NCBI RefSeq assembly: GCF_001457595.1
Contig: NZ_LN831039.1
Span: 2,010,001-2,042,000 of the forward strand
Direction: 5' to 3'
Length of the DNA stretch: 32,000 bases
Source: Mycolicibacterium smegmatis
Lineage (GTDB): Bacteria; Actinomycetota; Actinomycetes; Mycobacteriales; Mycobacteriaceae
Notes under the pieces: model-generated
Told to the model about the DNA's origin: nothing
The model's database searches: none
The model's input: only the letters and a program-made list of their open reading frames with translations
Translations under genes and position numbers: made by a program
In this document: positions 1 through 10,611 of the stretch, piece after piece
Numbering within the stretch: the stretch's first letter is position 1
Layout: every line of letters starts with the position of its first letter

Positions 1-629
1 GAGATACCGGGGCGGTTTCGCGTCGTGTAGGTCAGCACCCATCCGGCCCGTCCGGCTGCCGACGAAGTCACAATGTCCGGCTGTCCCGCGTTGGCACCGT
101 CCTTCAGGTGGAGGTACAGCTCTCGTCCACGAAGGTGAGTTATTGCTGATCCGTACCAACCGTCTGATGTCATTTCTGCAGCATCCGAGATCACTCTCTC
201 GAGGTCGTCGGCTACCACCAGTGGATTGGGGGTTCGGTCTGCCTCGGGTGTGGAAAGGTCGGCCAGGATGACAGGGAATTGGACGCGCGGGATCGCAACA
301 GTTTCGTTTCTCATGTTCGCGACGACGAGCCAGTCTGGGCGTACGGTTTCGTAGGCCGCCTTCAGGATGTTCGACCATTGCGAGGCGACGAAACGATCGG
401 GAAGATCGGGATGGCGTCTCGATGTGTAAACGACCATCGCCGAACTGTCATCGTCCAGTTTGCGCAACCGCGTGGACAGGACACGGTTGCCGTCGATCTC
501 CCGCTCGGTGGCGACGTAGTACAGCGTCACACCATCGAGTGCTCGAAACAACTCCAATCGAGCACGACCGTCGCCGGTGTCCTGGGCGGCCGAGGAGAAT
601 ATTCGCGCGCGCTGGTCTTTATCGATCAC
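1..629 (-). CDS. Partial CDS (at least 209 aa, runs off window start); putative cognate immunity protein with possible SseB-like two-repeat architecture
   Basis: Hand translation of the minus strand from GTG 629..627 is open to position 1: VIDKDQRARIFSSAAQDTGDGRARLELFRALDGVTLYYVATEREIDGNRVLSTRLRKLDDDSSAMVVYTSRRHPDLPDRF...GRELYLHLKDGANAGQPDIVTSSAAGRAGWVLTYTTRNRPGI. A GAGGA lies about 8 nt upstream. It is missing from the ORF track because no stop falls inside the window. It lies 75 nt downstream of the toxin stop on the same strand. The SseB-like call is pattern recollection only. Confidence 0.6.
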   Translation of the reverse strand, partial: MIDKDQRARIFSSAAQDTGDGRARLELFRALDGVTLYYVATEREIDGNRVLSTRLRKLDDDSSAMVVYTSRRHPDLPDRFVASQWSNILKAAYETVRPDWLVVANMRNETVAIPRVQFPVILADLSTPEADRTPNPLVVADDLERVISDAAEMTSDGWYGSAITHLRGRELYLHLKDGANAGQPDIVTSSAAGRAGWVLTYTTRNRPGI

Positions 630-703
630 TGTGAGGTCCTCGGAGTCGGTTGTCGATCGGTAGTCCGGAGAACAAAGGCGACAGGTAGGTGTTCGGGCAT
701 GGC

Positions 704-3700
704 TTACCAGTCATCATCGCCGAGGTTTTCAGGTTCAGGCCAGGGATACTTCTCAATGAAATCGTAGGTGTCCTGGTGGTAGATCCCGTGGACGTCGAAA
801 ACTCTGTGGTTCCAGGAACCGAGGCACGCCACGAAGTCAACCGCTCCCATGTTCGGCTGTAGAAGGTCACTGAGTGTTGTCGCTCGATCAACCGTGTGCG
901 GAGTACCTACAATGTTCATGTCGTCGGGCGGCAAAAGTGTGTAGTTGGGCATCGTTTCGCCTGGGTAGTACGTCTTCTTGAAGACGCGGGAGGTGTCCCC
1001 ACCCGACTCGATGAGATTCCCCAGCGACTGCGTGATCGGAGAACCATGTTCGCCGTACACCGTCACGGATGTGTCTGCGGGGACGGTGAACGTTCCATCG
1101 CCGCTGTGGTAATCACCATGCCCGCTTATCTTGTAGCGGCCGTCTGGCCCGACGGCGTTCTCGCGCGGACCGTCGTCGTCGCTGTAGCCACGATCATCGC
1201 CCCGCTGTTGATCGGTGTCGTCCCGCCAGCTATGGCTTGGCTCTGCGCGCACATCCGCGTCAGGCTTGTTCGATGCTCGATCGATTGAATCCTGATCTGT
1301 ATCCCGAAGAGTACGACTATCTGTCTCCGAAGTGAGTCCGTCGTGTCTTGCGGTTGGTTCCATCTGGCCATTCGGCGCAGGACCATCGGCAGATGTCGTT
1401 CTGTGGAACAACTCGGTTGCCCTGCCCGTGTCCGGGTCGATCTGGACAATTCGAGTGACATTCGGGTTATCCATCAGACGTGGAATCTCGACCGTCTGCC
1501 AGATGTTGCCTGGCCGAAGGTCGCTGCCCACGATCGCCGTAACGTCGCCGCGAGCATTCTCAGCATATGCCGCCGAAGCGTCTTCCCAGAACCTGACTGA
1601 TTCGGGATCGTGACGGTTCCATGCGGGCAACGGATGCACGCCGTTGCGCTCAAGCGTCATCTCGAGCGTTGTCCCGTTCGAGCCCTCCGCAATTCGCTCG
1701 GCAATTCCAGAGCCGTCCGGTCCTACGCCGACCCCGTTCGCGTCGCGTCCTGACCAATAGTGAGCCGAATCAGGTTCTGTTCTTGTCAGACGAAGGAGTT
1801 CGTCATAAGACGGCAGGCTGCCCGGAACGTAGTGGCCATTCTCATCGAGCATCGGGTTGTAGTCGAGATCTGACTTTGCAGGATCCGTGAATGCGTCGCC
1901 GTCGTGCACAGGCGGCTCCAGCCCACTGGAGTCGTGCGGTGGTTCGGGTTTCGGGGGTGGGGAGTTGTGGTGAGAATCGGACGGCGGCACAGACGAACCC
2001 GGCGCAGTGCCATGTTCCTTCGGTGCCGTTTGTTCAGACGTGCTCGAGGCTGGGCTGGTAGACGCCGATTGTCTCGATTGGTCCGCAGATGAATGGACCG
2101 GCGCCGACGGCGTGCTCCCTGGTGTCGGTCCGACCGCGCTGGGTTGTTGTGCCCTGGGAGTTTCCGGCGATCCCGTGTGCGAAGGTCGTGTCTCTGGACC
2201 GCGCGTGGACGTGTCGGGCGTCGGTAATTTGGCAGCGGGGGAAGGGCTTTCGCCGCCACCGTGCACCGGTCCCGGAGCGTGGGGCGTCATGGGCGAACCC
2301 GGTCCGCTCCCCACGCCAGGCGACATCATGGGCCCCATCGCGGGTTGTGGGCCGTTGACGGCCGAAGAATAAGCCGGCTCCCGAGATTCGTTGGTTTCTG
2401 CCGAGTTTCGGTCGTGGGTGACCGGTTGTTCGGCGGCAGCATTATGAGCGGGTTGCTGTTCAGCAGGCCGATGTGCTTGCTCGTCCGCCCAGTTGCGCGA
2501 CTCGTCGGTTACCGGTCGGTGGTGCTCGGCCGAGCCGATGTTGCTGTCCGACGAGATCGCGGAGTGCTCACCACCCACTGACCCGCCAATGTGTTGCGTC
2601 GGTGAGTGTGTGGATGCAGGCGCATCCGATGTCGAGGGTTGGTGAGTCGGTGTCGAGTTGGACTCTGCCGACGTATGGGGAGCGTCGTTTTGTGCTGCGG
2701 GCGTGGCGGGTTCGGGCGCATGCTGCGGCGTGTGATCGACGCTGGGCGGCGTGTGGCTGGGCTCTGGGTTGCCGCGAATCCCGGGCTCGCCGACCGAAGA
2801 GGACCCCGGATGGCTCGGCTCGGGCGTGCTCGGCGTATGCGGTGGCGGGGCGTCGCCGCGTGTCGGACCTGGATCGGCCGGGCCGACCGGGCGGTGTGGA
2901 GATTCAGGTGGGGGACCGTCGCCGCCACCGGGCGGGCGGGTGCCACCGGGATTGTGTGTCGTCGGCCCGGGCGGCTCGGGAGGCCGTACCGGGGCTTCGG
3001 GACCGCCCGGATTGGACGGGGCATCAAGACGATTGGAGGGCGCCGGGTTGATGACGGAGTCCGGGATGCCGTCCTGCCGGATCTCCGGTACTTCGGGGAC
3101 GCGGGACCCCGTGACCGACAGGTCGTTCCCGTCCAAGCCGTGACGCCCTGGGAGATCGAGGGGCGGAGAGTCCGCGTGGTCGAACGCCCTGCGGACTTTG
3201 TTGACACCCTTTGCCACGGTGCCACCCTTGGACAACGGCCCGCCTACGAACAGGCCGGCGATGTTGAAGCCCGCTTCGCCGATGCCGCGTCCCGGATTCT
3301 CCCCGGTCAACTGGTCCCAGGCGAAGAACTCTTTGCCGGCTGCGATGCCGATGTCGTCGATCAACGACGGATCCTTGATGACGGCCAGGGCCGTCTCGCC
3401 CAGGCCCTTCCAGGTGTCGAAGTCGGCGAAAGCCACTGTCCCGGCCACCGTGTTGATCACGCCGTTGAGTACGCCGGTCGACAGATCGGTCTGGAATTTG
3501 ATGATGTCCGAGATCGCGCCCCCGACTTGATCGCCGAGGATTTCCCGCAGGTTCTTGTCAGCCCATTTCTGGAACTTGGTGACGGTGTCGTTGAGCGCGT
3601 TCTTGAGCTCTTCCAGCAATGCGCCGACGGCTTTCACCTGACGCTGAAAGTTCCCCAGAAGGGTTCGAATGTCCTCGACGACCTCTTTGATGATGTCGAG

Positions 3701-4501
3701 CGCGTCCCCGGTGAATATGCCTTTGACCGTGTCGATGATCCCGTCGATGGACGCTACGCGGTCAAGTAACCGCCGTATCGCGTCCTGCGTTTCCTGCACG
3801 TTGTCGGCGAACGTATTCAGTGTCTCGGCGAGGTTCGTGGCCTGGTTGGCCAGGTCCGCAACGCCGTCGGCCAGATCGGCGTGTGCCTGGGCGATCTGCG
3901 AAGCTTCGGGGATCTTCTGCGTCGATACGGCTGTGCTGGACCCGCTGACCTGGTTCGAGACGGCCGAGAACCCGGTCGCCAAGTTCTCCCACTGCGCCGC
4001 GGTCAGACGCAACATCGCAGGATTGCCCGACGGCCAGGCGGTAGGTCCGAGAAAGCTCCCCACGAGGTACCACGCCGGCGGCGGCGGAACGACGCTGAGG
4101 CTCGGGCTGTCCCTCGCGTCAACGGGTTTGGTTTCGTCGAACTTGCCCTTCACGCCTCCTGTCGGGGCGCCGCCGCCTATGGTCGAAACGGCGTCGGCAT
4201 TGGCGTAGTTGTGCCCACTCGCCTGGAGTCTGAGGCCGACGGTTTTGAAAGTGTTTGCGCCGTTGGCCAAAGTGTTGGAGAACTTCTGCGTGAGATCTCC
4301 GTAGTCCAGTGCCATCGCGAGGCCGGCAAGGTCGATGCCCGAGGCGATACCGCTCGACAACATGGGGCCGAGCGCTCCCATGAGCATGTCCAACTGATTG
4401 CCCAGCGAGAGCATGCTCTCCCCGGCGCGGATCAGTACCTGGGGGTCGACTTCAATGCGTATTCCGCTGACGCCACCGCCGCCACCGCTGTTGGATGGCA
4501 C
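704..4501 (-). CDS. 1265-aa ESX/type VII secreted polymorphic toxin, CpnT-like N-terminal domain, Pro-rich linker, ADP-ribosyl cyclase-like domain plus extra C-terminal domain
   Basis: Single long ORF with a GTG start at 4501 that overlaps the upstream stop (TAGTG). N-terminal helical region carries HNYANAD (YxxxD, residues 99-103), [17 protein letters not shown] and GGPLSKGG. These resemble my recollection of the CpnT N-terminal domain (SAHNYSLAEA, WPNGDSTKLRAAA, GGPLSK). See domain features below. Confidence 0.85.
   Translation of the reverse strand: [1265 protein letters not shown]
707..1150 (-). other. Extra C-terminal domain (residues 1118-1265) of unknown function with a His...Cys pair
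   Basis: [10 protein letters not shown] (His codon 1118..1120) and [10 protein letters not shown] (Cys codon 824..826). This is the only Cys in the 1265-aa protein. The beta-strand-like context resembles clan CD (caspase/C80 CPD) GHG and xAC motifs. Weak call. Confidence 0.3.
1400..1885 (-). other. ADP-ribosyl cyclase / CD38-like (Tox-ARC type) domain, residues about 873-1034
   Basis: Ordered motifs [36 protein letters not shown] and WQTVEIPRL...NVTRIV. They match recalled Aplysia cyclase motifs MFWSG, ITLEDTL, SFWGMASSSYAHSAEGEVTYMVDGS and FGKYELPNL...KVTRV. The putative catalytic Glu codon is at 1487..1489. Confidence 0.65.
1886..3169 (-). other. Low-complexity Pro/Ser/Thr/His/Gly-rich linker (about residues 445-872)
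   Basis: Translation shows about 430 aa without hydrophobic core segments, for example [34 protein letters not shown] and the recurring PEPSH. Confidence 0.7.
3182..4501 (-). other. Toxin N-terminal helical secretion/translocation domain (residues 1 to about 440)
   Basis: Ala/Leu/Gly-rich helical sequence. YxxxD motif at nt 4193..4207 and W-P-S-G at residues 156-159. Long predicted helices follow ([24 protein letters not shown]..., [19 protein letters not shown]). Confidence 0.6.
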
Positions 4502-4809
4502 TAGTCATCCCACATCTCGGAGTTTTTGGTAACGGCGTCACTGTAATTCGAGCGTGCAGTCTGGGCGATCTTCTGCAATTGAGACAACGCTTCACGCATC
4601 TGCTCAGCGCCTTCTCGCCACAGTGCCTGCGCCTGCGCTTGTGCGTCGGAGGCCTCGCCATGCCACGACTGCCGCAACGAGGCCATGGTCCGGTCGATGT
4701 CCTCCAGACAACTGGTGACCTCGCGTTCGTAACTTGCCATGTGCGCGATGGCATCTTGCATCTGGCCGAAATCGACCACCAGAGGGGCCCCGCCACCGCT
4801 ACTGGGCAT
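4501..4809 (-). CDS. WXG100 family (ESAT-6-like) protein, 102 aa
   Basis: About 100 aa, helical, with a central W-H-G (SWHGEAS, nt 4657..4665). GGAAGG lies upstream of ATG 4809. The start overlaps the upstream gene by 11 nt and the stop overlaps the toxin start. Confidence 0.85.
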   Translation of the reverse strand: MPSSGGGAPLVVDFGQMQDAIAHMASYEREVTSCLEDIDRTMASLRQSWHGEASDAQAQAQALWREGAEQMREALSQLQKIAQTARSNYSDAVTKNSEMWDD

Positions 4810-5668
4810 CGTTCAACCTTCCGAAGCGCATCGAATTACCCGTCGTCGGTGGTGACGGTGACGGAGGCGCCATCTCCCCAGGAGCCGACACGCTCGACGA
4901 GTCGGTGCCGGCGCCTCCGCCTGCACCGTTGGCCTCCAGCGTCTCAGCTTCCTGCTCGTCGCTCTGCCTCTCGGTTTCGTCGCGTTCGTCGGTGTGTTCG
5001 TCCTCGGTATCCGGTGTTGCCTCGTCGACAGGAACGAGAGGGTCAGCAGCGGTCGTCGAGCCCGTCTCGACCGGTGTGGCGCCTGCACCCGACTCTGATT
5101 GCGCGGCCTGCACAATCCCGGTCACGCCCTGTGTGATCGCGGTTGCGGCCTGGGTGAGGCCACCCGTCAGCTGCCCTGCCGCCTGAGCAGCGCCCTCGGC
5201 AAGCTGGCCGCCGAGCTGAGCTGCGGGCTCGCCGAGGCCCATCATCGCCGCGAGATCCTCGGTGCCGCCGTCCATCTGGGCCGACGAGGCCTGTTGAGCA
5301 GACGTAGCAGCGGCAGGGGATGCCGATGACGCCCCGGCTGATCCCGCAGGGGACCCGCCGCCGGGCTGAAACGAGGAGCCCACTGCACCGGCCGCCTGCT
5401 GATCGGTTGCGCTGTAGCTGTCGGCCGAGGCTTTCAGTGACTCCGACATCGCCTGCAGACCCCGGATGACCTGTCCGGCGCCGTTGTGCCACTTGTCCCA
5501 CTGTTCCGAGTACGCGGACGCGGCGCCGCCCTTCCAGCCCGACCCGAGCAGCTGATCCACCGAGAGATCGACGGCAGACAATCCGTCCTGCAGGCGTTGT
5601 CCGGCGTCAGCGAGCGCGGCCGAGGCCGACCGAAGTTCGGACGTGACCACTTCCAGCGACTGCCCCAC
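4799..5668 (-). CDS. WXG100-domain protein with long low-complexity and acidic C-terminal extension, 289 aa
   Basis: N-terminal 95 aa carry W-K-G (GSGWKGGAASAY, nt 5528..5536) and YSATD (YxxxD, nt 5402..5416). GTG start follows GAGGGGGG. The rest is Ala/Gly/Gln/Ser-rich, then acidic (DEATPDTEDEHTDERDETERQSDEQEAE). Confidence 0.8.
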   Translation of the reverse strand: MGQSLEVVTSELRSASAALADAGQRLQDGLSAVDLSVDQLLGSGWKGGAASAYSEQWDKWHNGAGQVIRGLQAMSESLKASADSYSATDQQAAGAVGSSFQPGGGSPAGSAGASSASPAAATSAQQASSAQMDGGTEDLAAMMGLGEPAAQLGGQLAEGAAQAAGQLTGGLTQAATAITQGVTGIVQAAQSESGAGATPVETGSTTAADPLVPVDEATPDTEDEHTDERDETERQSDEQEAETLEANGAGGGAGTDSSSVSAPGEMAPPSPSPPTTGNSMRFGRLNDAQ

Positions 5669-5757
5669 AGTGTTACCCCCCTCGACCGGCAGCCGACAAT
5701 CGGACCTGAGTTTATCGGCGCTCGCTGGGCCGCGATCGCACCAATTACGCTGCCCGT

Positions 5758-6390
5758 GTGCTCATCGCGATAGAGGGCGTCGACGGCGCCGGCAAACGCA
5801 CGTTGACCAACGGCCTGCGGGCGGCGTTCGAGACCAACCACAAGTCGGTGGCCAGCCTCGCGTTCCCGCGGTACCACCAGTCGGTGCCCGCGGACCTCGC
5901 GGCCGAGGCGCTACGGGGCAGCCACGGCGACCTCGCCGAGTCCGTGTACGCGATGGCGACGCTGTTCGCGTTGGACCGGGCCGGCGCGCGGGAGCAGATC
6001 GAGCACCTGCAGGCCGCCTACGACGTCGTCATCCTCGACCGGTACGTGGCGTCGAACGCGGCCTACAGCGCGGCGCGTCTGCACCAGGGCGTCGACGGCG
6101 AGGTGGTGACGTGGGTGCACGAGCTAGAGTTCGGGCGCCTGCACCTGCCCGTGCCGGACTGGCAGGTGTTGCTGAACGTGCCGACCGAACTGGCCGCGCA
6201 GCGCGCCGAGCACCGCGCCAACACCGAGGCCGACCGCGCCAAGGACGCCTACGAGCGCGACGACGGTCTGCAGCGGCGCACGGGTGAGGTGTACGCGGCA
6301 CTGGCGGCCGCCGACTGGGGCGGCCGATGGGCGATCGCCGGGCCCGACGTGGACGCGACGGCCCTGGCCGACCGGTTAAGCAGCGGTTAA
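5758..6390 (+). CDS. tmk: dTMP (thymidylate) kinase
   Basis: MLIAIEGVDGAGKRT P-loop, mycobacterial Tmk length (210 aa), position immediately upstream of mtrA as in M. tuberculosis. Confidence 0.93.
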   Translation: MLIAIEGVDGAGKRTLTNGLRAAFETNHKSVASLAFPRYHQSVPADLAAEALRGSHGDLAESVYAMATLFALDRAGAREQIEHLQAAYDVVILDRYVASNAAYSAARLHQGVDGEVVTWVHELEFGRLHLPVPDWQVLLNVPTELAAQRAEHRANTEADRAKDAYERDDGLQRRTGEVYAALAAADWGGRWAIAGPDVDATALADRLSSG

Positions 6391-6441
6391 AGCGAAACGC
6401 CCGCGTGTGGTAGCCGAGTTTTGTGGCGATCTGGTGACACC

Positions 6442-7128
6442 ATGGACACCATGAGGCAAAGGATCCTTGTCGTCGATGACGACCCGTCACTGGCCGAGAT
6501 GCTCACCATCGTTCTGCGTGGTGAGGGTTTCGACACCGCGGTCATCGGCGACGGCAGCCAGGCACTCACCGCTGTCCGGGAGCTCAGGCCGGACCTGGTC
6601 CTGCTCGATTTGATGCTGCCTGGGATGAACGGCATCGACGTGTGCCGTGTGCTGCGCGCCGACTCCGGCGTGCCGATCGTCATGCTGACCGCCAAGACCG
6701 ACACCGTCGACGTGGTGCTGGGCCTGGAATCCGGAGCCGACGACTATGTGATGAAGCCGTTCAAGCCGAAGGAGCTCGTCGCGCGCGTGCGGGCCCGGCT
6801 GCGGCGCAACGAGGACGAGCCCGCCGAGATGCTGTCGATCGGTGACGTCGAGATCGACGTGCCCGCGCACAAGGTGACCCGGCAAGGCGAGCAGATTTCG
6901 CTGACACCGCTGGAGTTCGACCTGCTGGTGGCCCTGGCACGCAAACCACGGCAGGTGTTTACTCGGGATGTGCTGCTCGAACAGGTGTGGGGATACCGTC
7001 ACCCCGCTGACACCCGTTTGGTGAACGTGCATGTCCAGCGGTTGCGGGCAAAGGTGGAGAAAGACCCGGAGAACCCGCAGGTGGTCCTGACCGTTCGAGG
7101 AGTGGGATACAAGGCCGGACCCCCGTGA
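6442..7128 (+). CDS. mtrA: Response regulator MtrA (OmpR family)
   Basis: MDTMRQRILVVDDDPSLAEML... is near-identical to recalled M. tuberculosis MtrA. The ORF-track start at 6421 is a likely 5' over-extension. Confidence 0.96.
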   Translation: MDTMRQRILVVDDDPSLAEMLTIVLRGEGFDTAVIGDGSQALTAVRELRPDLVLLDLMLPGMNGIDVCRVLRADSGVPIVMLTAKTDTVDVVLGLESGADDYVMKPFKPKELVARVRARLRRNEDEPAEMLSIGDVEIDVPAHKVTRQGEQISLTPLEFDLLVALARKPRQVFTRDVLLEQVWGYRHPADTRLVNVHVQRLRAKVEKDPENPQVVLTVRGVGYKAGPP

Positions 7129-7195
7129 TCGACGCCGGCGAGCATGCGCGGCGCCGTGACGAGTCGAAGGCTTCTTTGCACGAGGAGCGGTGCCG

Positions 7196-8857
7196 ATGAT
7201 CTTCGGCTCCAGGCGGCGCATACGTGGGCGTTGGGGAGGTTCCGGCCCACTCGTGCGTGGATTGGGGACGTTGGGCAGAGCGCTCAGCCTGGTGTGGCGT
7301 CGCTCCCTGCAACTGCGGGTCGTCACGCTCACGCTCGGGCTGTCACTGGCCGTCATATTGGTACTCGGCTTCGTGCTGACCAGTCAGATCACCGACCGGA
7401 TCCTCGAAGTCAAGGTCAAGGCTGCCACCGAAGAGGTGGAGCGGGCCCGCAACACCGTCAGCGGCATCGTCGGCGGTGAGGAGTCCCGCTCGCTCGAGAG
7501 CAGCCTGCAGTTGGCGCGCAACACGCTCGTCGACCGCAAGGCCGACGTGCGTGCGGACATGGCCGGCGCCTTTGACGCGGTCCTCGTCGTACCCGGCGAC
7601 GGCCCCCGCGCGGCCGCTGCGGCCGGGCCGGTGGCGCAGATCCCCGAGGCGCTGCGTGACTTCGTCAAGGCCGGTCAAGTCAGCTACCAGTACGCGACCG
7701 TGCAGACCGAAGGGTTCTCCGGACCCGCGCTGATCGTGGGCAGCCCGACGACGTCGTCGGTGCCGAATCTTGAGCTGTACCTGATCTTCCCGTTGAACAA
7801 CGAGGAGAGCACCATCGCGCTGGTGCGCGGCACCATGGCGACCGGCGGTGTGGTGCTGCTCGGTCTGCTCGCGGCCATCGCGTTGGTGGTGGCGCGTCAG
7901 ATCGTGCAGCCGGTGCGGTCGGCCTCGCGCATCGCCGAACGGTTCGCCGAGGGGCACCTGACCGAACGCATGCCGGTGCGCGGCGAGGACGACATGGCGC
8001 GCCTGGCGGTGTCGTTCAACGACATGGCCGAAAGCCTGTCACGTCAGATCCAGCAGCTCGAAGAGTTCGGTAACCTGCAGCGCCGCTTCACCTCTGACGT
8101 GAGCCACGAGCTGCGCACGCCGCTGACCACGGTGCGCATGGCCGCCGATCTGATCTACGACCACAGCGAGGATCTGGACCCTGCGCTGCGCCGGTCGACC
8201 GAGCTCATGGTCAACGAACTCGACCGGTTCGAGACACTGCTGGCCGATCTGCTGGAGATCTCACGCCACGACGCGGGCGTGGCCGAATTGTCGGTCGAGT
8301 CGCTGGATCTGCGGTCGACGGTGCGCAGCGCACTGGACAACGTGGGACATCTCGCGGCCGACGCGGGTGTCGAGCTCACTCTCGACATGCCCGAGGAAGA
8401 CGTCATCGCCGAGGTGGATCCCCGCCGCGTGGAACGCATCCTGCGCAACCTCATCGCCAACGCCATCGATCACGCCGAGAGCAAGCCCGTGCAGATCCGC
8501 ATGGCCGCCGACGAGGACACCGTCGCGGTCACGGTGCGCGACTTCGGCGTCGGGCTGCGTCCTGGTGAGGAGAAGCTGGTGTTCAGCCGCTTCTGGCGGT
8601 CCGATCCGTCGCGCGTGCGGCGCTCCGGCGGCACGGGGCTGGGCCTGGCGATCAGCATCGAGGATGCCCGCCTGCACCAGGGACGGTTGGAGGCCTGGGG
8701 CGAGCCCGGCAAGGGTGCGTGCTTCCGGCTCACGTTGCCGCTGGTGCGTGGCCACAAGGTGACGACGAGCCCGTTGCCGCTCAAGCCTGCCTCGGAGCAG
8801 CGGCCGGCGCGCCGCCGTTCCAACAAGGATCGGGAAGCAGCGGAGGAGAGCGTGTGA
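7196..8857 (+). CDS. mtrB: Sensor histidine kinase MtrB
   Basis: [12 protein letters not shown]..., HAMP, H-box SHELRTPL, and N/G boxes. Start ATG 7196 matches the Mtb MtrB N-terminus; GTG 7190 is the alternative. Confidence 0.95.
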
Positions 8858-10611
8858 AGCGCCTGCTGACGGTGTTGGTCGTCGGTCTGGTGGCCCTGGT
8901 GTCCGGTTGCGCGGGAATTCCCAGCTCGTCTTCTCCGCAGGCGATCGGCACGGTCGAACGACCGGCCCCGCCGAGCCTGCCGAAACCGACACCGGACATG
9001 GACCCGGACGTGCTGCTGCGGGAATTCCTCAAGGCCACAGCCGATCCCGCCAACCGGCATCTGGCGGCGCGGCAGTTCCTCACCGAGTCCGCGTCGAGCG
9101 CATGGGACGACGCGGGCAGCGCCCTGCTGATCGACCGCGTGGTGTTCGTCGAAACCCGCAGCACCGACCGGGTTTCGGTGAGCATGCGCGCCGACATCCT
9201 CGGATCGCTGTCGGATCTGGGTGTGTTCGAGACGGGGGAGGGGGCGCTACCCGATCCGGGGCCCATCGAACTGGTCAAGACCTCGGGTGGCTGGCGGATC
9301 GACCGGTTGCCCAACGGCGTGTTCCTGGACTGGCAGCAGTTCCAGGCCACCTACAAGCGCTACACCCTCTACTTCGTCGACCCCACCGGGACCACCGTGG
9401 TGCCCGATCCGCGCTACGTGGCGGTGTCGGATCCGGATCAGCTTGCCACCGAACTCGTCTCGAAGCTCATCGCCGGACCGCGCCCGGAGATGGAGCGCTC
9501 GGTGCGCAACCTGCTCGACCCGCCGCTGAAACTGCGCGGTCCGGTCACCCGCGCCGACGGTGGCAAGACCGGCGTCGGCCGCGGCTACGGCGGTGCGCGC
9601 ATCGACCTGGAGAACCTGTCGGCCTCCGACCCGCACAGCCGCCAACTGCTTGCCGCCCAACTCATCTGGACGCTGTCGCGCGCGGGTGTGGCAGGCCCGT
9701 ACGTGATCAACGTCGACGGCGCGCCGCTGGACGACCGGTTCGCCGACGGCTGGGAGACCTCCGACGTCGCCGCCACCGATCCGGGTGCGGCGCCGGGCGC
9801 GGCGGCGGGCCTGCACGCGCTCGTGAACGGATCGCTGGTGTCGCTCGACGGTCAGCGCGCCCCGCGCGTGCCCGGCGCCTTCGGGCAGGCGCCGCACCAG
9901 GTTTCGGCATCGGTGTCGCGCAACGGTCAGGACGCCGCGTCCGTGGTGGCGCCGCCGGGAGCCCCCGATCCGGCAGCGACGCTGTGGATCGGCCCGCTGG
10001 GCGGCAGCACCGTGCAGGCCATGGAGGGCCGCACCCTGTCGCGGCCGAGTTGGTCGCTGGACCAGGCGGTGTGGGTGGTCGCCGACGGCATCAACGTGGT
10101 GCGTGCCATCCGCGACGCGTCGGGAACCCCGGCGCGGATCCCGGTGGATTCCAGTGCGGTGAGCAGCCGCTACCCGGGACCGATCAGCGACCTGCAGCTG
10201 TCGCGTGACGGCACCCGCGCCGCGATGGTCATCGAGGGCCAGGTGATCCTCGCGGGTATCGAACAGACGCAGGACGGACGGTTCCTGCTGACCTACCCGC
10301 GCCGGTTGGGTTTCGGGCTCGGCAACTCCGCGGTGTCGCTGTCGTGGCGTACCGGTGACGACATCGTGGTGAGCCGCACCGATCCGGAGCACCCCGTGTC
10401 GTATGTGAACCTCGACGGCGTGAATTCCGACGCGCCGAGCCGCAATCTGGTGATGCCGGTGTCGGTCGTGGCGGCCAACCCGTCCACGGTGTATGTCGCC
10501 GATCAGCGTGGCGTGAAGCAACTTTCGGCCTCGGCCGACGAGGAGAACTCGGGTTGGGTCGAGGTCAGTCCGCTGATGGTGCCCGGCTCGCTTCCCGTAC
10601 TGCCCGGCTGA
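8854..10611 (+). CDS. lpqB: Lipoprotein LpqB (MtrAB accessory)
   Basis: GTG 8854 overlaps the mtrB stop (GTGA). Signal peptide plus lipobox LVSGC. Conserved position after mtrB. The ORF-track start at 8719 is an over-extension. Confidence 0.93.

What the first reader, a model, noticed from the sequence alone, without database searches (positions are those of the whole stretch)
1400..1885. Toxin module resembles a cysteine-free ADP-ribosyl cyclase/CD38 fold (NAD-consuming)
Residues about 873-1034 carry the ordered landmarks of the ADP-ribosyl cyclase family, compared here with sequences I recall for Aplysia cyclase and human CD38. HYWSG matches MFWSG/LLWSR. TTLEMTL matches ITLEDTL/FTLEDTL. RFWEDASAAYAENARGDVTAIVGS matches SFWGMASSSYAHSAEGEVTYMVDGS and [34 protein letters not shown] matches FGKYELPNL/FGSVEVHNL, which holds the catalytic Glu (here the codon at 1487..1489). 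The eukaryotic enzymes depend on multiple disulfides, whereas this 162-aa segment has no cysteine. That fits an unfolded-export, cytosol-acting bacterial toxin. Functionally it would parallel the NAD glycohydrolase TNT but on an unrelated fold, and it could also make cADPR-type signalling nucleotides.
Basis: partly seen in the sequence, partly recalled or inferred. Interest (0 to 1): 0.85.

Follow-up and report, generated by a model that had tools for sequence, protein, structure and literature searches.

The report
CD38-fold NAD-degrading secreted bacterial toxin
The segment really is a small, cysteine-free bacterial version of the CD38/ADP-ribosyl cyclase enzyme, carried inside a Mycolicibacterium smegmatis type VII-secreted toxin. 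That toxin class was predicted in 2012 and proven in 2025, so this is a new member of a known family with an unusual two-warhead layout.

Summary
Confirmed. Residues 878-1037 of a 1265-aa ORF (window 704-4501, minus strand) form an ADP-ribosyl cyclase (ARC) domain. It matches two crystallised bacterial ARC toxins, Tac1 (9OUF) and Pantoea ARCtox (9RO8), at E about 1e-33. Its AlphaFold model superposes on them (TM 0.82-0.91) and more weakly on Aplysia cyclase and CD38. The catalytic tetrad W916/E947/W972/E1005 is intact and the segment has no cysteine. The likely activity is NAD(P)+ hydrolysis to linear ADP-ribose, not cADPR release, because the hydrolysis-promoting Glu (E947) is kept.

The class is already known: Tox-ARC (2012) and two JBC papers (2025). 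The host is Mycolicibacterium smegmatis, and the protein has a WXG100-like ESX targeting domain with two WXG100 partner genes upstream.

What differs here:
- The ARC domain is internal and is followed by a second His/Cys "Stv" domain.
- The predicted ARC immunity is a 97-aa actinobacterial family unrelated to Imm74.
- The immunity genes are nested: [ARC][Stv] | [Stv-immunity, 249 aa] | [ARC-immunity, 97 aa].
- The two immunity proteins are fused into one 351-aa protein in a relative.

Activity, secretion route and target have not been tested.

The parts
704..4501 (-). Polymorphic toxin ORF, 1265 aa (GTG start; stop at 704-706). An identical protein occurs in Mycolicibacterium smegmatis genomes. 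The near-identical mc2 155 protein in the same 90% cluster is UniProt A0QTJ8.
3092..4501 (-). N-terminal helical ESX (type VII) targeting region, aa 1-470. It includes the Pfam WXG100_2 match at aa 142-244 (window 3770-4078).
   Evidence: PF25547, 33.5 bits against a cut-off of 27
4193..4207 (-). YxxxD motif (Y99-A-N-A-D103), the consensus ESX secretion signal.
   Evidence: Read from the sequence; function inferred from general knowledge of ESX substrates.
1871..3091 (-). Pro/Ser/Gly-rich low-complexity spacer, about aa 471-877 (21% Pro).
   Evidence: fastest-evolving part of the protein (dN/dS 0.43)
1391..1870 (-). ADP-ribosyl cyclase (Tox-ARC/Tac1-type) domain, aa 878-1037: the finding.
   Evidence: dN/dS 0.07 against the ortholog in L089
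1754..1756 (-). W916 (HYW), equivalent to Pantoea ARCtox W273.
1661..1663 (-). E947 (TLE), equivalent to Tac1 E516, ARCtox E299 and CD38 E146. This Glu drives hydrolysis of the cADPR intermediate.
1586..1588 (-). W972 (RFW), equivalent to Tac1 W540 and ARCtox W323.
1487..1489 (-). E1005 (TVE), equivalent to Tac1 E573, ARCtox E356 and CD38 E226: the essential catalytic Glu.
1148..1390 (-). Asp/Arg-rich linker between ARC and Stv, aa 1038-1118. The AF2 models have low confidence at both of its ends.
707..1147 (-). C-terminal Stv domain (PF21527), aa 1119-1265, with conserved H1128 (window 1118-1120), E1165 and C1226 (window 824-826). It is a second predicted warhead or a processing enzyme.
   Evidence: dN/dS 0.07
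1..629 (-). First 209 codons of a 249-aa gene, cut by the window edge. It is the predicted Stv immunity protein.
   Evidence: homologs at 47-52% identity lie directly after Stv-ending toxins that have no ARC domain, in L087, L088 and L091
4501..4809 (-). WXG100 (EsxA/B-like) gene, 102 aa, with a WHG motif. Its stop overlaps the toxin start.
   Evidence: (PF06013, E=1e-16)
4799..5668 (-). WXG100 gene with a long C-terminal extension, 289 aa, carrying WKG and YSATD motifs.
   Evidence: (PF06013, E=2e-20)

Best explanation
Residues about 878-1037 are a Tox-ARC/Tac1-type ADP-ribosyl cyclase domain. It is one warhead of an ESX (type VII)-secreted polymorphic toxin of Mycolicibacterium smegmatis.

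**Proposed mechanism.**
- The N-terminal WXG100-like helical domain carries a YxxxD motif. Together with the two WXG100 proteins encoded just upstream, it directs export through an ESX system (inferred).
- A long Pro-rich spacer follows this domain and carries the cargo.
- In a recipient cytosol the ARC domain binds NAD+/NADP+ in the cleft between its two lobes (W916, W972).
- E1005 cleaves off nicotinamide through a cADPR-type intermediate, and E947 promotes hydrolysis to linear ADP-ribose(-2'-phosphate).
- This depletes NAD(P)+ and stops growth. The chemistry is inferred from Tac1 and Pantoea ARCtox.

**Self-protection.** The producer is protected by a 97-aa protein encoded 157 nt beyond the left edge of the window (L001:14659-14952). 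It belongs to an actinobacterial family that accompanies ARC toxins and is unrelated to Imm74.

**Second module.** The ARC domain is followed in frame by a second conserved His/Cys (Stv) domain, whose own predicted immunity gene (249 aa) lies between the toxin gene and the ARC immunity gene.
For: **Shown here**
- Sequence homology to two crystallised, assayed ARC toxins: E=4.9e-34 and 4.1e-33, and 1e-45 with a profile.
- The AF2 model superposes on 9OUF and 9RO8 (TM 0.82-0.91, rmsd 1.5-2.1 A). The next matches are Aplysia cyclase, CD38 and CD157.
- All four mutationally validated active-site residues are conserved. Their spacing matches ARCtox once the 5- and 1-residue insertions before W972 are allowed for, and W972-E1005 is the same 33 residues.
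- dN/dS is 0.07 for the ARC domain against a dual-domain ortholog.
- The N-terminus matches WXG100_2 above the Pfam threshold, and two WXG100 genes lie upstream.
- In 37 of 80 species-representative ARC loci, nearly all titled Actinomycetota, BLAST finds a homolog of the 97-aa protein. It abuts the ARC stop codon in all but L027, where a profile search finds an adjacent paralog.
- In a related metagenomic contig (L089) the 249-aa and 97-aa proteins are fused into a single 351-aa protein downstream of an ARC+Stv toxin.

**From the literature**
- Tac1 turns over about 12,000 NAD(P)+ per minute, and E573A abolishes both activity and toxicity.
- ARCtox hydrolyses NAD(P)+ without producing cADPR.
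- ARC domains fused to EsxA-type T7SS domains have been listed in Gordonia, and Tox-ARC with T7SS (LXG, WXG) in Actinobacteria.
Against: - No enzymatic, toxicity or secretion data exist for this protein, and no paper on it was found.
- The Pfam Rib_hydrolase match is below its cut-off.
- The domain is not at the C-terminus, unlike 73 of 80 related loci, so its release or activity in the fusion context is unknown.
- No ESX apparatus genes lie in the window, and which ESX system exports the toxin is unknown.
- The immunity role of the 97-aa protein rests on gene neighbourhood only.
- An immunity gene does not settle whether the target is bacterial: M. tuberculosis CpnT also has an immunity factor although it acts on host cells.
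Confidence: 0.85

Rival explanations
1. The ARC domain works mainly as a cyclase. It would release cADPR, or a related nucleotide such as NAADP, as a signal or toxic product rather than simply destroying NAD(P)+.
For: The family chemistry passes through a cADPR intermediate. A bacterial relative, Nac1, releases cADPR and ADPR in roughly equal amounts. Zhang et al. raised this option in 2012.
Against: Nac1 has Ala at the position of Tac1 E516, and the Tac1 E516A mutant releases cADPR. The window protein keeps Glu there (E947), as do most close relatives. Tac1 and ARCtox release no detectable cADPR.
Confidence: 0.08
2. The ARC module is a displaced, vestigial warhead left behind when a Stv cassette recombined onto the C-terminus. 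On this view only Stv is functional.
For: Polymorphic toxins evolve by C-terminal cassette replacement. ARC is internal here but terminal in 73 of 80 related loci. DNA similarity to an ARC-only locus stops at the end of ARC.
Against: All catalytic residues and near-invariant positions are intact. dN/dS is 0.07 across an ortholog pair whose synonymous sites are saturated. The cognate 97-aa gene is retained, is itself constrained (dN 0.135, dS 1.40), and is fused to the Stv-associated protein in L089.
Confidence: 0.05
3. The C-terminal Stv domain is not a second toxin. It would be an autoprocessing cysteine protease, comparable to the MARTX cysteine protease domain (CPD), that frees the ARC domain after delivery. 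The 249-aa protein would then restrain premature cleavage.
For: A conserved His/Cys pair is present, and the Stv preprint proposes a CPD-like role. Stv occurs in the same polypeptide as bona fide toxin domains (TNT, Ntox28, Abhydrolase_8, ARC), sometimes upstream of them. Zhang et al. describe caspase-like release peptidases in WXG/T7SS toxins.
Against: Stv is the only cargo and sits at the C-terminus in 145 of 151 representative proteins, including Rhs toxins. It has its own co-varying downstream gene in loci that have no ARC domain, which is the signature of a toxin-immunity pair. The high-confidence model has no Foldseek similarity to CPD or caspase structures.
Confidence: 0.25
4. The toxin is aimed at eukaryotic cells such as amoebae or macrophages, as CpnT/TNT is, rather than at competing bacteria.
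For: Pantoea ARCtox is toxic in yeast as well as in E. coli. A review lists MSMEG_1870 as the closest, though weak (24.5%), M. smegmatis match to CpnT; that this locus tag is the present gene is only inferred. Interbacterial killing by mycobacterial ESX systems is not documented in the papers read here (one search states that the roles are unclear).
Against: Relatives are spread among free-living soil Actinomycetota with tightly linked immunity genes and polyimmunity arrays. Zhang et al. read that pattern as intra-specific conflict. NAD(P)+ is universal, so the enzyme itself does not discriminate between targets.
Confidence: 0.25

Closest known systems
Tac1 (Streptococcus parasanguinis LXG toxin; PDB 9OUF; Colautti, Kim & Whitney, JBC 2025, PMC12356396)
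   Same: Same domain family: about 50% identity over about 135 residues, E=4.9e-34, TM 0.82. The W/E/W/E active site and the minimal two-lobe, cysteine-free core are shared. Both are carried by type VII-secreted polymorphic toxins. The predicted chemistry is the same: NAD(P)+ to ADPR through a cADPR intermediate.
   Different: Tac1 is delivered by T7SSb through an LXG domain with Lap partners, whereas this toxin has an actinobacterial WXG100_2 domain with two WXG100 partners. Tac1's ARC domain is C-terminal and its immunity protein is Imm74 (Tci1). Here the ARC domain is internal, followed by Stv, and the associated 97-aa protein is unrelated to Imm74 (hhalign probability 0.06%).
Pantoea ananatis PAAR-ARCtox (PDB 9RO8; Martinkus et al., JBC 2025, PMC12605009)
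   Same: Same domain family (E=4.1e-33, TM 0.89-0.91). W273/E299/W323/E356 align exactly with W916/E947/W972/E1005. That paper already lists ARC domains fused to EsxA-type T7SS modules in Actinomycetota (Gordonia jinhuaensis, which is locus L044 here).
   Different: ARCtox is delivered by the T6SS through a PAAR domain and has a single warhead. The immunity family also differs: non-actinobacterial ARC loci sampled here, including Listeria costaricensis, carry Imm74, and the Pantoea ARCimm is reported to cross-protect with the Listeria monocytogenes immunity protein.
Eukaryotic ADP-ribosyl cyclases (Aplysia cyclase, CD38, CD157; Pfam PF02267)
   Same: Same catalytic core fold and the same four active-site residues (Foldseek E=1e-5 to 1e-3).
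   Different: The bacterial domain is about 160 aa against about 250 aa. It lacks the extra helices and all disulfides. It scores below the Pfam gathering threshold. Its predicted role is to act as a cytosolic poison rather than a regulated signalling ecto-enzyme.
[quoted passage not shown]
   Same: These are mycobacterial ESX-dependent toxins with a downstream immunity gene. TNT is also an NAD+ glycohydrolase. PEST cassettes share the layout of WXG100 gene, polymorphic toxin and immunity gene.
   Different: The TNT fold is unrelated, and Pfam finds no TNT match here. No mycobacteriophage record carries this ARC or Stv domain. The locus is chromosomal, next to tmk-mtrAB-lpqB.

Membership tests
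Bacterial ARC toxins (Tox-ARC / Tac1 / ARCtox) | Significant sequence similarity to characterised members | tested here: met
   E=4.9e-34 (9OUF) and 4.1e-33 (9RO8); 1e-45 with a profile
Bacterial ARC toxins (Tox-ARC / Tac1 / ARCtox) | Two-lobe CD38-core fold | tested here: met
   AF2 core pLDDT >90; Foldseek TM 0.82-0.91 to 9OUF/9RO8, followed by Aplysia cyclase, CD38 and CD157
Bacterial ARC toxins (Tox-ARC / Tac1 / ARCtox) | Active-site Trp/Glu/Trp/Glu tetrad in register | tested here: met
   W916, E947, W972 and E1005 align with W273/E299/W323/E356 of ARCtox. E947, W972 and E1005 align with E516/W540/E573 of Tac1.
Bacterial ARC toxins (Tox-ARC / Tac1 / ARCtox) | NAD(P)+ glycohydrolase activity and toxicity that depends on the catalytic Glu | not testable with these tools
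   Needs enzyme assays and expression tests
Bacterial ARC toxins (Tox-ARC / Tac1 / ARCtox) | Fusion to a secretion-targeting module | tested here: met
   WXG100_2 above the Pfam threshold, a YxxxD motif and two WXG100 genes upstream
Bacterial ARC toxins (Tox-ARC / Tac1 / ARCtox) | ARC as the C-terminal domain | tested here: not met
   230 residues follow the ARC match, against 0-5 residues in 73 of 80 related loci
Bacterial ARC toxins (Tox-ARC / Tac1 / ARCtox) | Adjacent Imm74 immunity gene | tested here: not met
   Neither downstream protein has a Pfam hit. The 97-aa family compared with Imm74 gives hhalign probability 0.06%. In the control, 9 of 9 non-actinobacterial loci carry Imm74. A different ARC-linked family is present instead.
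Pfam Rib_hydrolase PF02267 (eukaryotic ARC/CD38) | Score above the gathering threshold | tested here: not met
   19.2 bits against a 25-bit cut-off, and only profile positions 130-182 matched
Pfam Rib_hydrolase PF02267 (eukaryotic ARC/CD38) | Conserved disulfide framework | tested here: not met
   No Cys in residues 873-1034
ESX (T7SSa) substrate / polymorphic toxin | WXG100-type helical N-terminus, YxxxD/E signal and co-encoded WXG100 partners | tested here: met
ESX (T7SSa) substrate / polymorphic toxin | ESX-dependent secretion | not testable with these tools
   No ESX core genes in the window; needs secretion assays in esx mutants
Stv domain (PF21527) | Profile match above threshold with conserved His and Cys | tested here: met
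   74.8 bits against a 24.2-bit cut-off; H1128 conserved in 93% and C1226 in 99% of 151 sequences
Clan CD peptidases (caspase / MARTX cysteine protease domain, CPD), considered for the Stv tail | Caspase-like alpha/beta fold | tested here: inconclusive
TNT NADase, and ADP-ribosyltransferases (the UniProt name for A0QTJ8) | Profile match to TNT or ART families | tested here: not met
   No TNT or ART family among the Pfam or NCBIfam hits at E<=1

The most novel reading that the evidence does not exclude
The locus may preserve a general route by which multi-warhead polymorphic toxins are built. A complete 'linker-toxin + immunity' cassette (Stv plus the 249-aa gene) would have been inserted in frame exactly at the junction between an existing toxin domain (ARC) and its immunity gene (97 aa). 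That gives the nested order [ARC][Stv] | [Stv-imm][ARC-imm].

The same nesting is seen independently in two other places:
- a related toxin with a different internal domain (L091);
- a Treponema ARC-AHH nuclease toxin followed by a 202-aa ORF and then Imm74 (L055).

In another related contig the two immunity proteins have fused into one bivalent 351-aa protein (L089).

On this reading, M. smegmatis carries a dual-activity ESX toxin. One activity is an NADase. The other is a Cys/His enzyme with a fold that has no solved relative. The locus would also carry two uncatalogued immunity families, all in a genetically tractable model organism where ESX-mediated interbacterial antagonism could be tested directly.
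Probability: 0.5. Interest if true: 0.55.

Novelty: new member of a known kind. Interest (0 to 1): 0.4.

Why it matters
The ARC fold as a bacterial NAD(P)+-depleting weapon is now established, so the finding adds no new principle. Its value lies in its setting. It places a confidently assignable NADase warhead in Mycolicibacterium smegmatis, the standard mycobacterial model, on an ESX-type carrier. In the papers read here, no role for mycobacterial ESX polymorphic toxins (competition, pathogenicity or phage defence) had direct support. This locus has clear catalytic residues to mutate and two candidate immunity genes, which gives a direct handle on that question.

It also corrects misleading database names: 'putative adhesin', 'ADP-ribosyltransferse', and the 9OUF molecule name 'Ribonuclease'. 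It defines a candidate actinobacterial ARC immunity family distinct from Imm74. Finally, it offers a clean example of nested two-warhead, two-immunity architecture.

Tried and rejected
**Searches that gave little or nothing**
- Pfam Rib_hydrolase alone would have left the call ambiguous, because the match is below threshold. NCBIfam gave nothing for the ARC or Stv segments.
- The N-terminal 470 aa had no informative PDB sequence match.
- The immunity candidates had no hits in Pfam, NCBIfam or PDB sequences.
- tblastn of ARC and Stv against phage genomes gave only three Firmicutes records for ARC and none for Stv. A link to mycobacterial prophage PEST cassettes is therefore not supported.
- Searches for MSMEG locus tags and A0QTJ8 found only a review table entry. 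No functional study was found.

**Interpretations considered and rejected**
- A TNT or ART identity: no profile hits.
- A chance motif resemblance: E about 1e-33.
- A decayed relic domain: dN/dS 0.07 and an intact active site.

**Limits**
- The window's own genome is not among the species representatives scanned. The organism was identified through the exact-sequence cluster look-up instead.
Full report
**Observation**

The finding lies on the minus strand, inside a 1265-aa ORF (window 704-4501). Window 1400-1885 encodes residues 873-1034. The Glu of TVEIP is E1005, encoded at 1487-1489. The 162-aa segment contains no cysteine, and the whole protein has a single Cys, C1226.

**Is it an ADP-ribosyl cyclase domain?**

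- Pfam's eukaryote-centred Rib_hydrolase model matches only weakly: 19.2 bits against a 25-bit cut-off, covering profile positions 130-182.
- A search of all PDB sequences gives two strong matches. One is 9OUF at E=4.9e-34 and the other is 9RO8 ('ADP-ribosylcyclase toxin') at E=4.1e-33. CD38 and Aplysia cyclase score only E=0.5-1.7.
- A profile built from 26 homologs raises the bacterial matches to 1e-45 and Aplysia cyclase to 0.014.
- 9OUF is Tac1, the LXG/T7SSb toxin of Streptococcus parasanguinis; its PDB molecule name 'Ribonuclease' is misleading. 9RO8 is the PAAR/T6SS ARC toxin of Pantoea ananatis.
- An AlphaFold2 model of the segment (mean pLDDT 81.6, core above 90) retrieves 9OUF (E=6e-17, TM 0.82) and 9RO8 (E=2e-16, TM 0.89-0.91). 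Aplysia cyclase (1e-5), CD38 and CD157 come next.

The fold assignment is therefore secure.

**Active site and predicted chemistry**

Both 2025 papers define the active site by mutagenesis. In Tac1, E573 is essential, E516 is needed to hydrolyse the cADPR intermediate, and W540 contributes. These correspond to CD38 E226 and E146. In ARCtox the residues are W273, E299, W323 and E356.

Counting through the HMMER alignments, these map onto W916, E947, W972 and E1005 of the window protein. The spacings agree once small loop insertions are allowed for, and W972-E1005 is exactly the 33 residues between W323 and E356.

Tac1 turns over about 12,000 NAD(P)+ per minute to linear ADP-ribose. It releases detectable cADPR only when E516 is mutated. 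The natural relative Nac1, which has Ala at that position, releases cADPR. The window protein keeps this Glu (E947). The best prediction is therefore an NAD(P)+ glycohydrolase that depletes the cofactor, not a producer of cADPR signals. This step is inferred, not shown.

**Carrier and genomic context**

- Exact-sequence look-up places the protein in Mycolicibacterium smegmatis. The near-identical mc2 155 protein in the same 90% cluster is UniProt A0QTJ8, named 'putative adhesin' or 'ADP-ribosyltransferse' in databases.
- The N-terminus matches Pfam WXG100_2 above threshold and carries a YxxxD motif at residues 99-103.
- Two WXG100 genes lie immediately upstream. The stop of the second overlaps the toxin start.
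- A Pro-rich spacer of about 400 residues separates the targeting region from the cargo.
- The toxin operon and its flank (window 1-5000) have 58-68% G+C, lowest (58-60%) at the ARC/Stv/immunity end, against about 67-72% for most of the rest. The operon abuts tmk-mtrA-mtrB-lpqB. IS3 elements follow it in the genome. This is consistent with horizontal acquisition.
- This is the architecture of actinobacterial ESX polymorphic toxins. Zhang et al. listed Tox-ARC with 'T7SS (LXG, WXG)' in Actinobacteria. Martinkus et al. listed an EsxA-ARC protein in Gordonia.
- No ESX apparatus genes are nearby, so export would occur in trans. The system responsible is unknown.

**What differs from the described ARC toxins**

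*1. The ARC domain is not terminal.* In 80 species-representative loci encoding relatives, the ORF ends 0-5 residues after the ARC match in 73. Here 230 residues follow it. The tail is a Pfam Stv domain (PF21527, 74.8 bits).
- A 2026 preprint proposes Stv as a toxin with a His/Cys pair.
- H1128, E1165 and C1226 are 93-99% conserved across 151 representative proteins, and Stv is C-terminal in 145 of them.
- In other WXG100_2 proteins it also occurs upstream of TNT, Ntox28 and Abhydrolase_8 domains.
- Its AF2 model is confident (pLDDT 91.8) but has no Foldseek neighbour in the PDB.

*2. The immunity genes differ.* Neither downstream protein matches Imm74 or any other Pfam or NCBIfam family.
- BLAST finds homologs of the 97-aa protein (L001:14659-14952, just beyond the window edge) in 37 of the 80 ARC loci. 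These lie typically within -19 to +16 nt of the ARC stop codon, with L027 the exception, where a profile search finds an adjacent paralog. Nearly all of these loci are titled Actinomycetota.
- The non-actinobacterial loci carry Imm74 (9 of 9 tested). The two families are unrelated by profile-profile comparison.
- Homologs of the 249-aa protein (window 1-629, partial) follow Stv-ending toxins that have no ARC domain in three other loci, at 47-52% identity.

The pairing is therefore ARC with the 97-aa protein and Stv with the 249-aa protein, and the gene order is nested: [ARC][Stv] | [249] | [97].

*3. Support from related loci.* In a related metagenomic contig with the same ARC+Stv toxin (84% and 71% identity), the two downstream proteins are fused into one 351-aa protein. 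The same nested order recurs in a toxin with an unidentified internal domain plus Stv (L091). It also recurs in a Treponema ARC-AHH nuclease toxin followed by a 202-aa ORF and then Imm74. DNA similarity to an ARC-only locus ends at the ARC boundary. The simplest account is in-frame insertion of a toxin-immunity cassette at the toxin/immunity junction. This is an inference.

**Is the internal ARC domain still functional?**

Between the M. smegmatis gene and the L089 ortholog, dN/dS is 0.07 for ARC and 0.07 for Stv. It is 0.25 for the targeting domain and 0.43 for the spacer. dS is saturated, so these values are approximate. Both immunity genes are also constrained. Together with the intact active site, this argues against a vestigial domain.

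The central interpretation is supported. The suggestion of cADPR signalling is unlikely because E947 is retained. The 'unfolded export' rationale has no support. The cysteine-free state is shared with Tac1 and ARCtox in the aligned regions and fits a cytosolic enzyme.

The claimed novelty does not hold. The class was predicted in 2012 and characterised twice in 2025. No study of this particular protein was found.

**Verdict**

This is a real feature, correctly read. It is a new member of a known toxin family, with a noteworthy two-warhead, nested-immunity layout and a non-Imm74 candidate immunity family, in a tractable model organism. Enzymatic activity, secretion route, target organism and the role of Stv remain untested.

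Noticed in passing
window 707-1147 (-), aa 1119-1265: A C-terminal Stv domain (PF21527) follows the ARC domain. H1128, E1165 and C1226 are 93-99% conserved in 151 representatives. The confident AF2 model (pLDDT 91.8) has no Foldseek neighbour in the PDB.
   Followed up: yes
window 1-629 (-); full gene at L001:13873-14622: A 249-aa gene is cut by the window edge and has no Pfam, NCBIfam or PDB match. Its homologs sit directly after Stv-ending toxins in L087, L088 and L091, so it is the likely Stv immunity protein.
   Followed up: yes
L001:14659-14952 (157 nt beyond window position 1): A 97-aa protein defines an actinobacterial family found next to the ARC gene in 37 of 80 ARC loci, abutting the ARC stop codon in nearly all. 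It is unrelated to Imm74 and is the candidate ARC immunity protein.
   Followed up: yes
L089:6144-7199 and L090:5163-6218: A single 351-aa protein fuses the 249-aa and 97-aa homologs (74% and 84% identity) downstream of an ARC+Stv ortholog. It would be a bivalent immunity protein.
   Followed up: partly
L055:6028-8175 (Treponema MAG): An ARC domain is followed in frame by an AHH nuclease domain (PF14412). A 202-aa ORF comes next and then Imm74. This is the same nested toxin/immunity order in an unrelated phylum.
   Followed up: partly
P0065, P0068, P0097: Stv occurs internally, upstream of Abhydrolase_8, TNT or Ntox28 domains. This contradicts the preprint's statement that Stv is found only at C-termini.
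   Followed up: partly
L021, L022, L024, L025, L028; P0036, P0043, P0045, P0047 (M. kansasii/gastri group): These ARC homologs have Lys where E947 (the cADPR-hydrolysis Glu) would be. They also have a 28-34 residue tail and no 97-aa or Imm74 gene downstream. They may be cADPR-releasing or non-toxin ARC enzymes, like Nac1.
   Followed up: no
L027 (Microbacterium MAG), 4481-9547: Three to four paralogs of the 97-aa family cluster around one ARC gene, which looks like a polyimmunity array.
   Followed up: no
window 1-5700 compared with 5700-32000; L001:15085-18045: The toxin operon and its flank (window 1-5000) have lower G+C (0.58-0.68, lowest at the ARC/Stv/immunity end) than most of the rest of the window (about 0.67-0.72). 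In the genome they are followed by two IS3-family elements. The operon is inserted beside tmk-mtrA-mtrB-lpqB.
   Followed up: partly
P0060 aa ~880-1050; L091:5845-6108: A related WXG100_2 toxin carries an unidentified domain (no Pfam hit) in place of ARC, ahead of Stv. An unassigned 87-aa gene sits in the outer immunity position.
   Followed up: partly
database records for 9OUF and A0QTJ8/WP entries: The names are misleading. The PDB 9OUF molecule is called 'Ribonuclease'. UniProt calls the mc2 155 protein 'ADP-ribosyltransferse'. RefSeq calls it 'putative adhesin'.
   Followed up: yes
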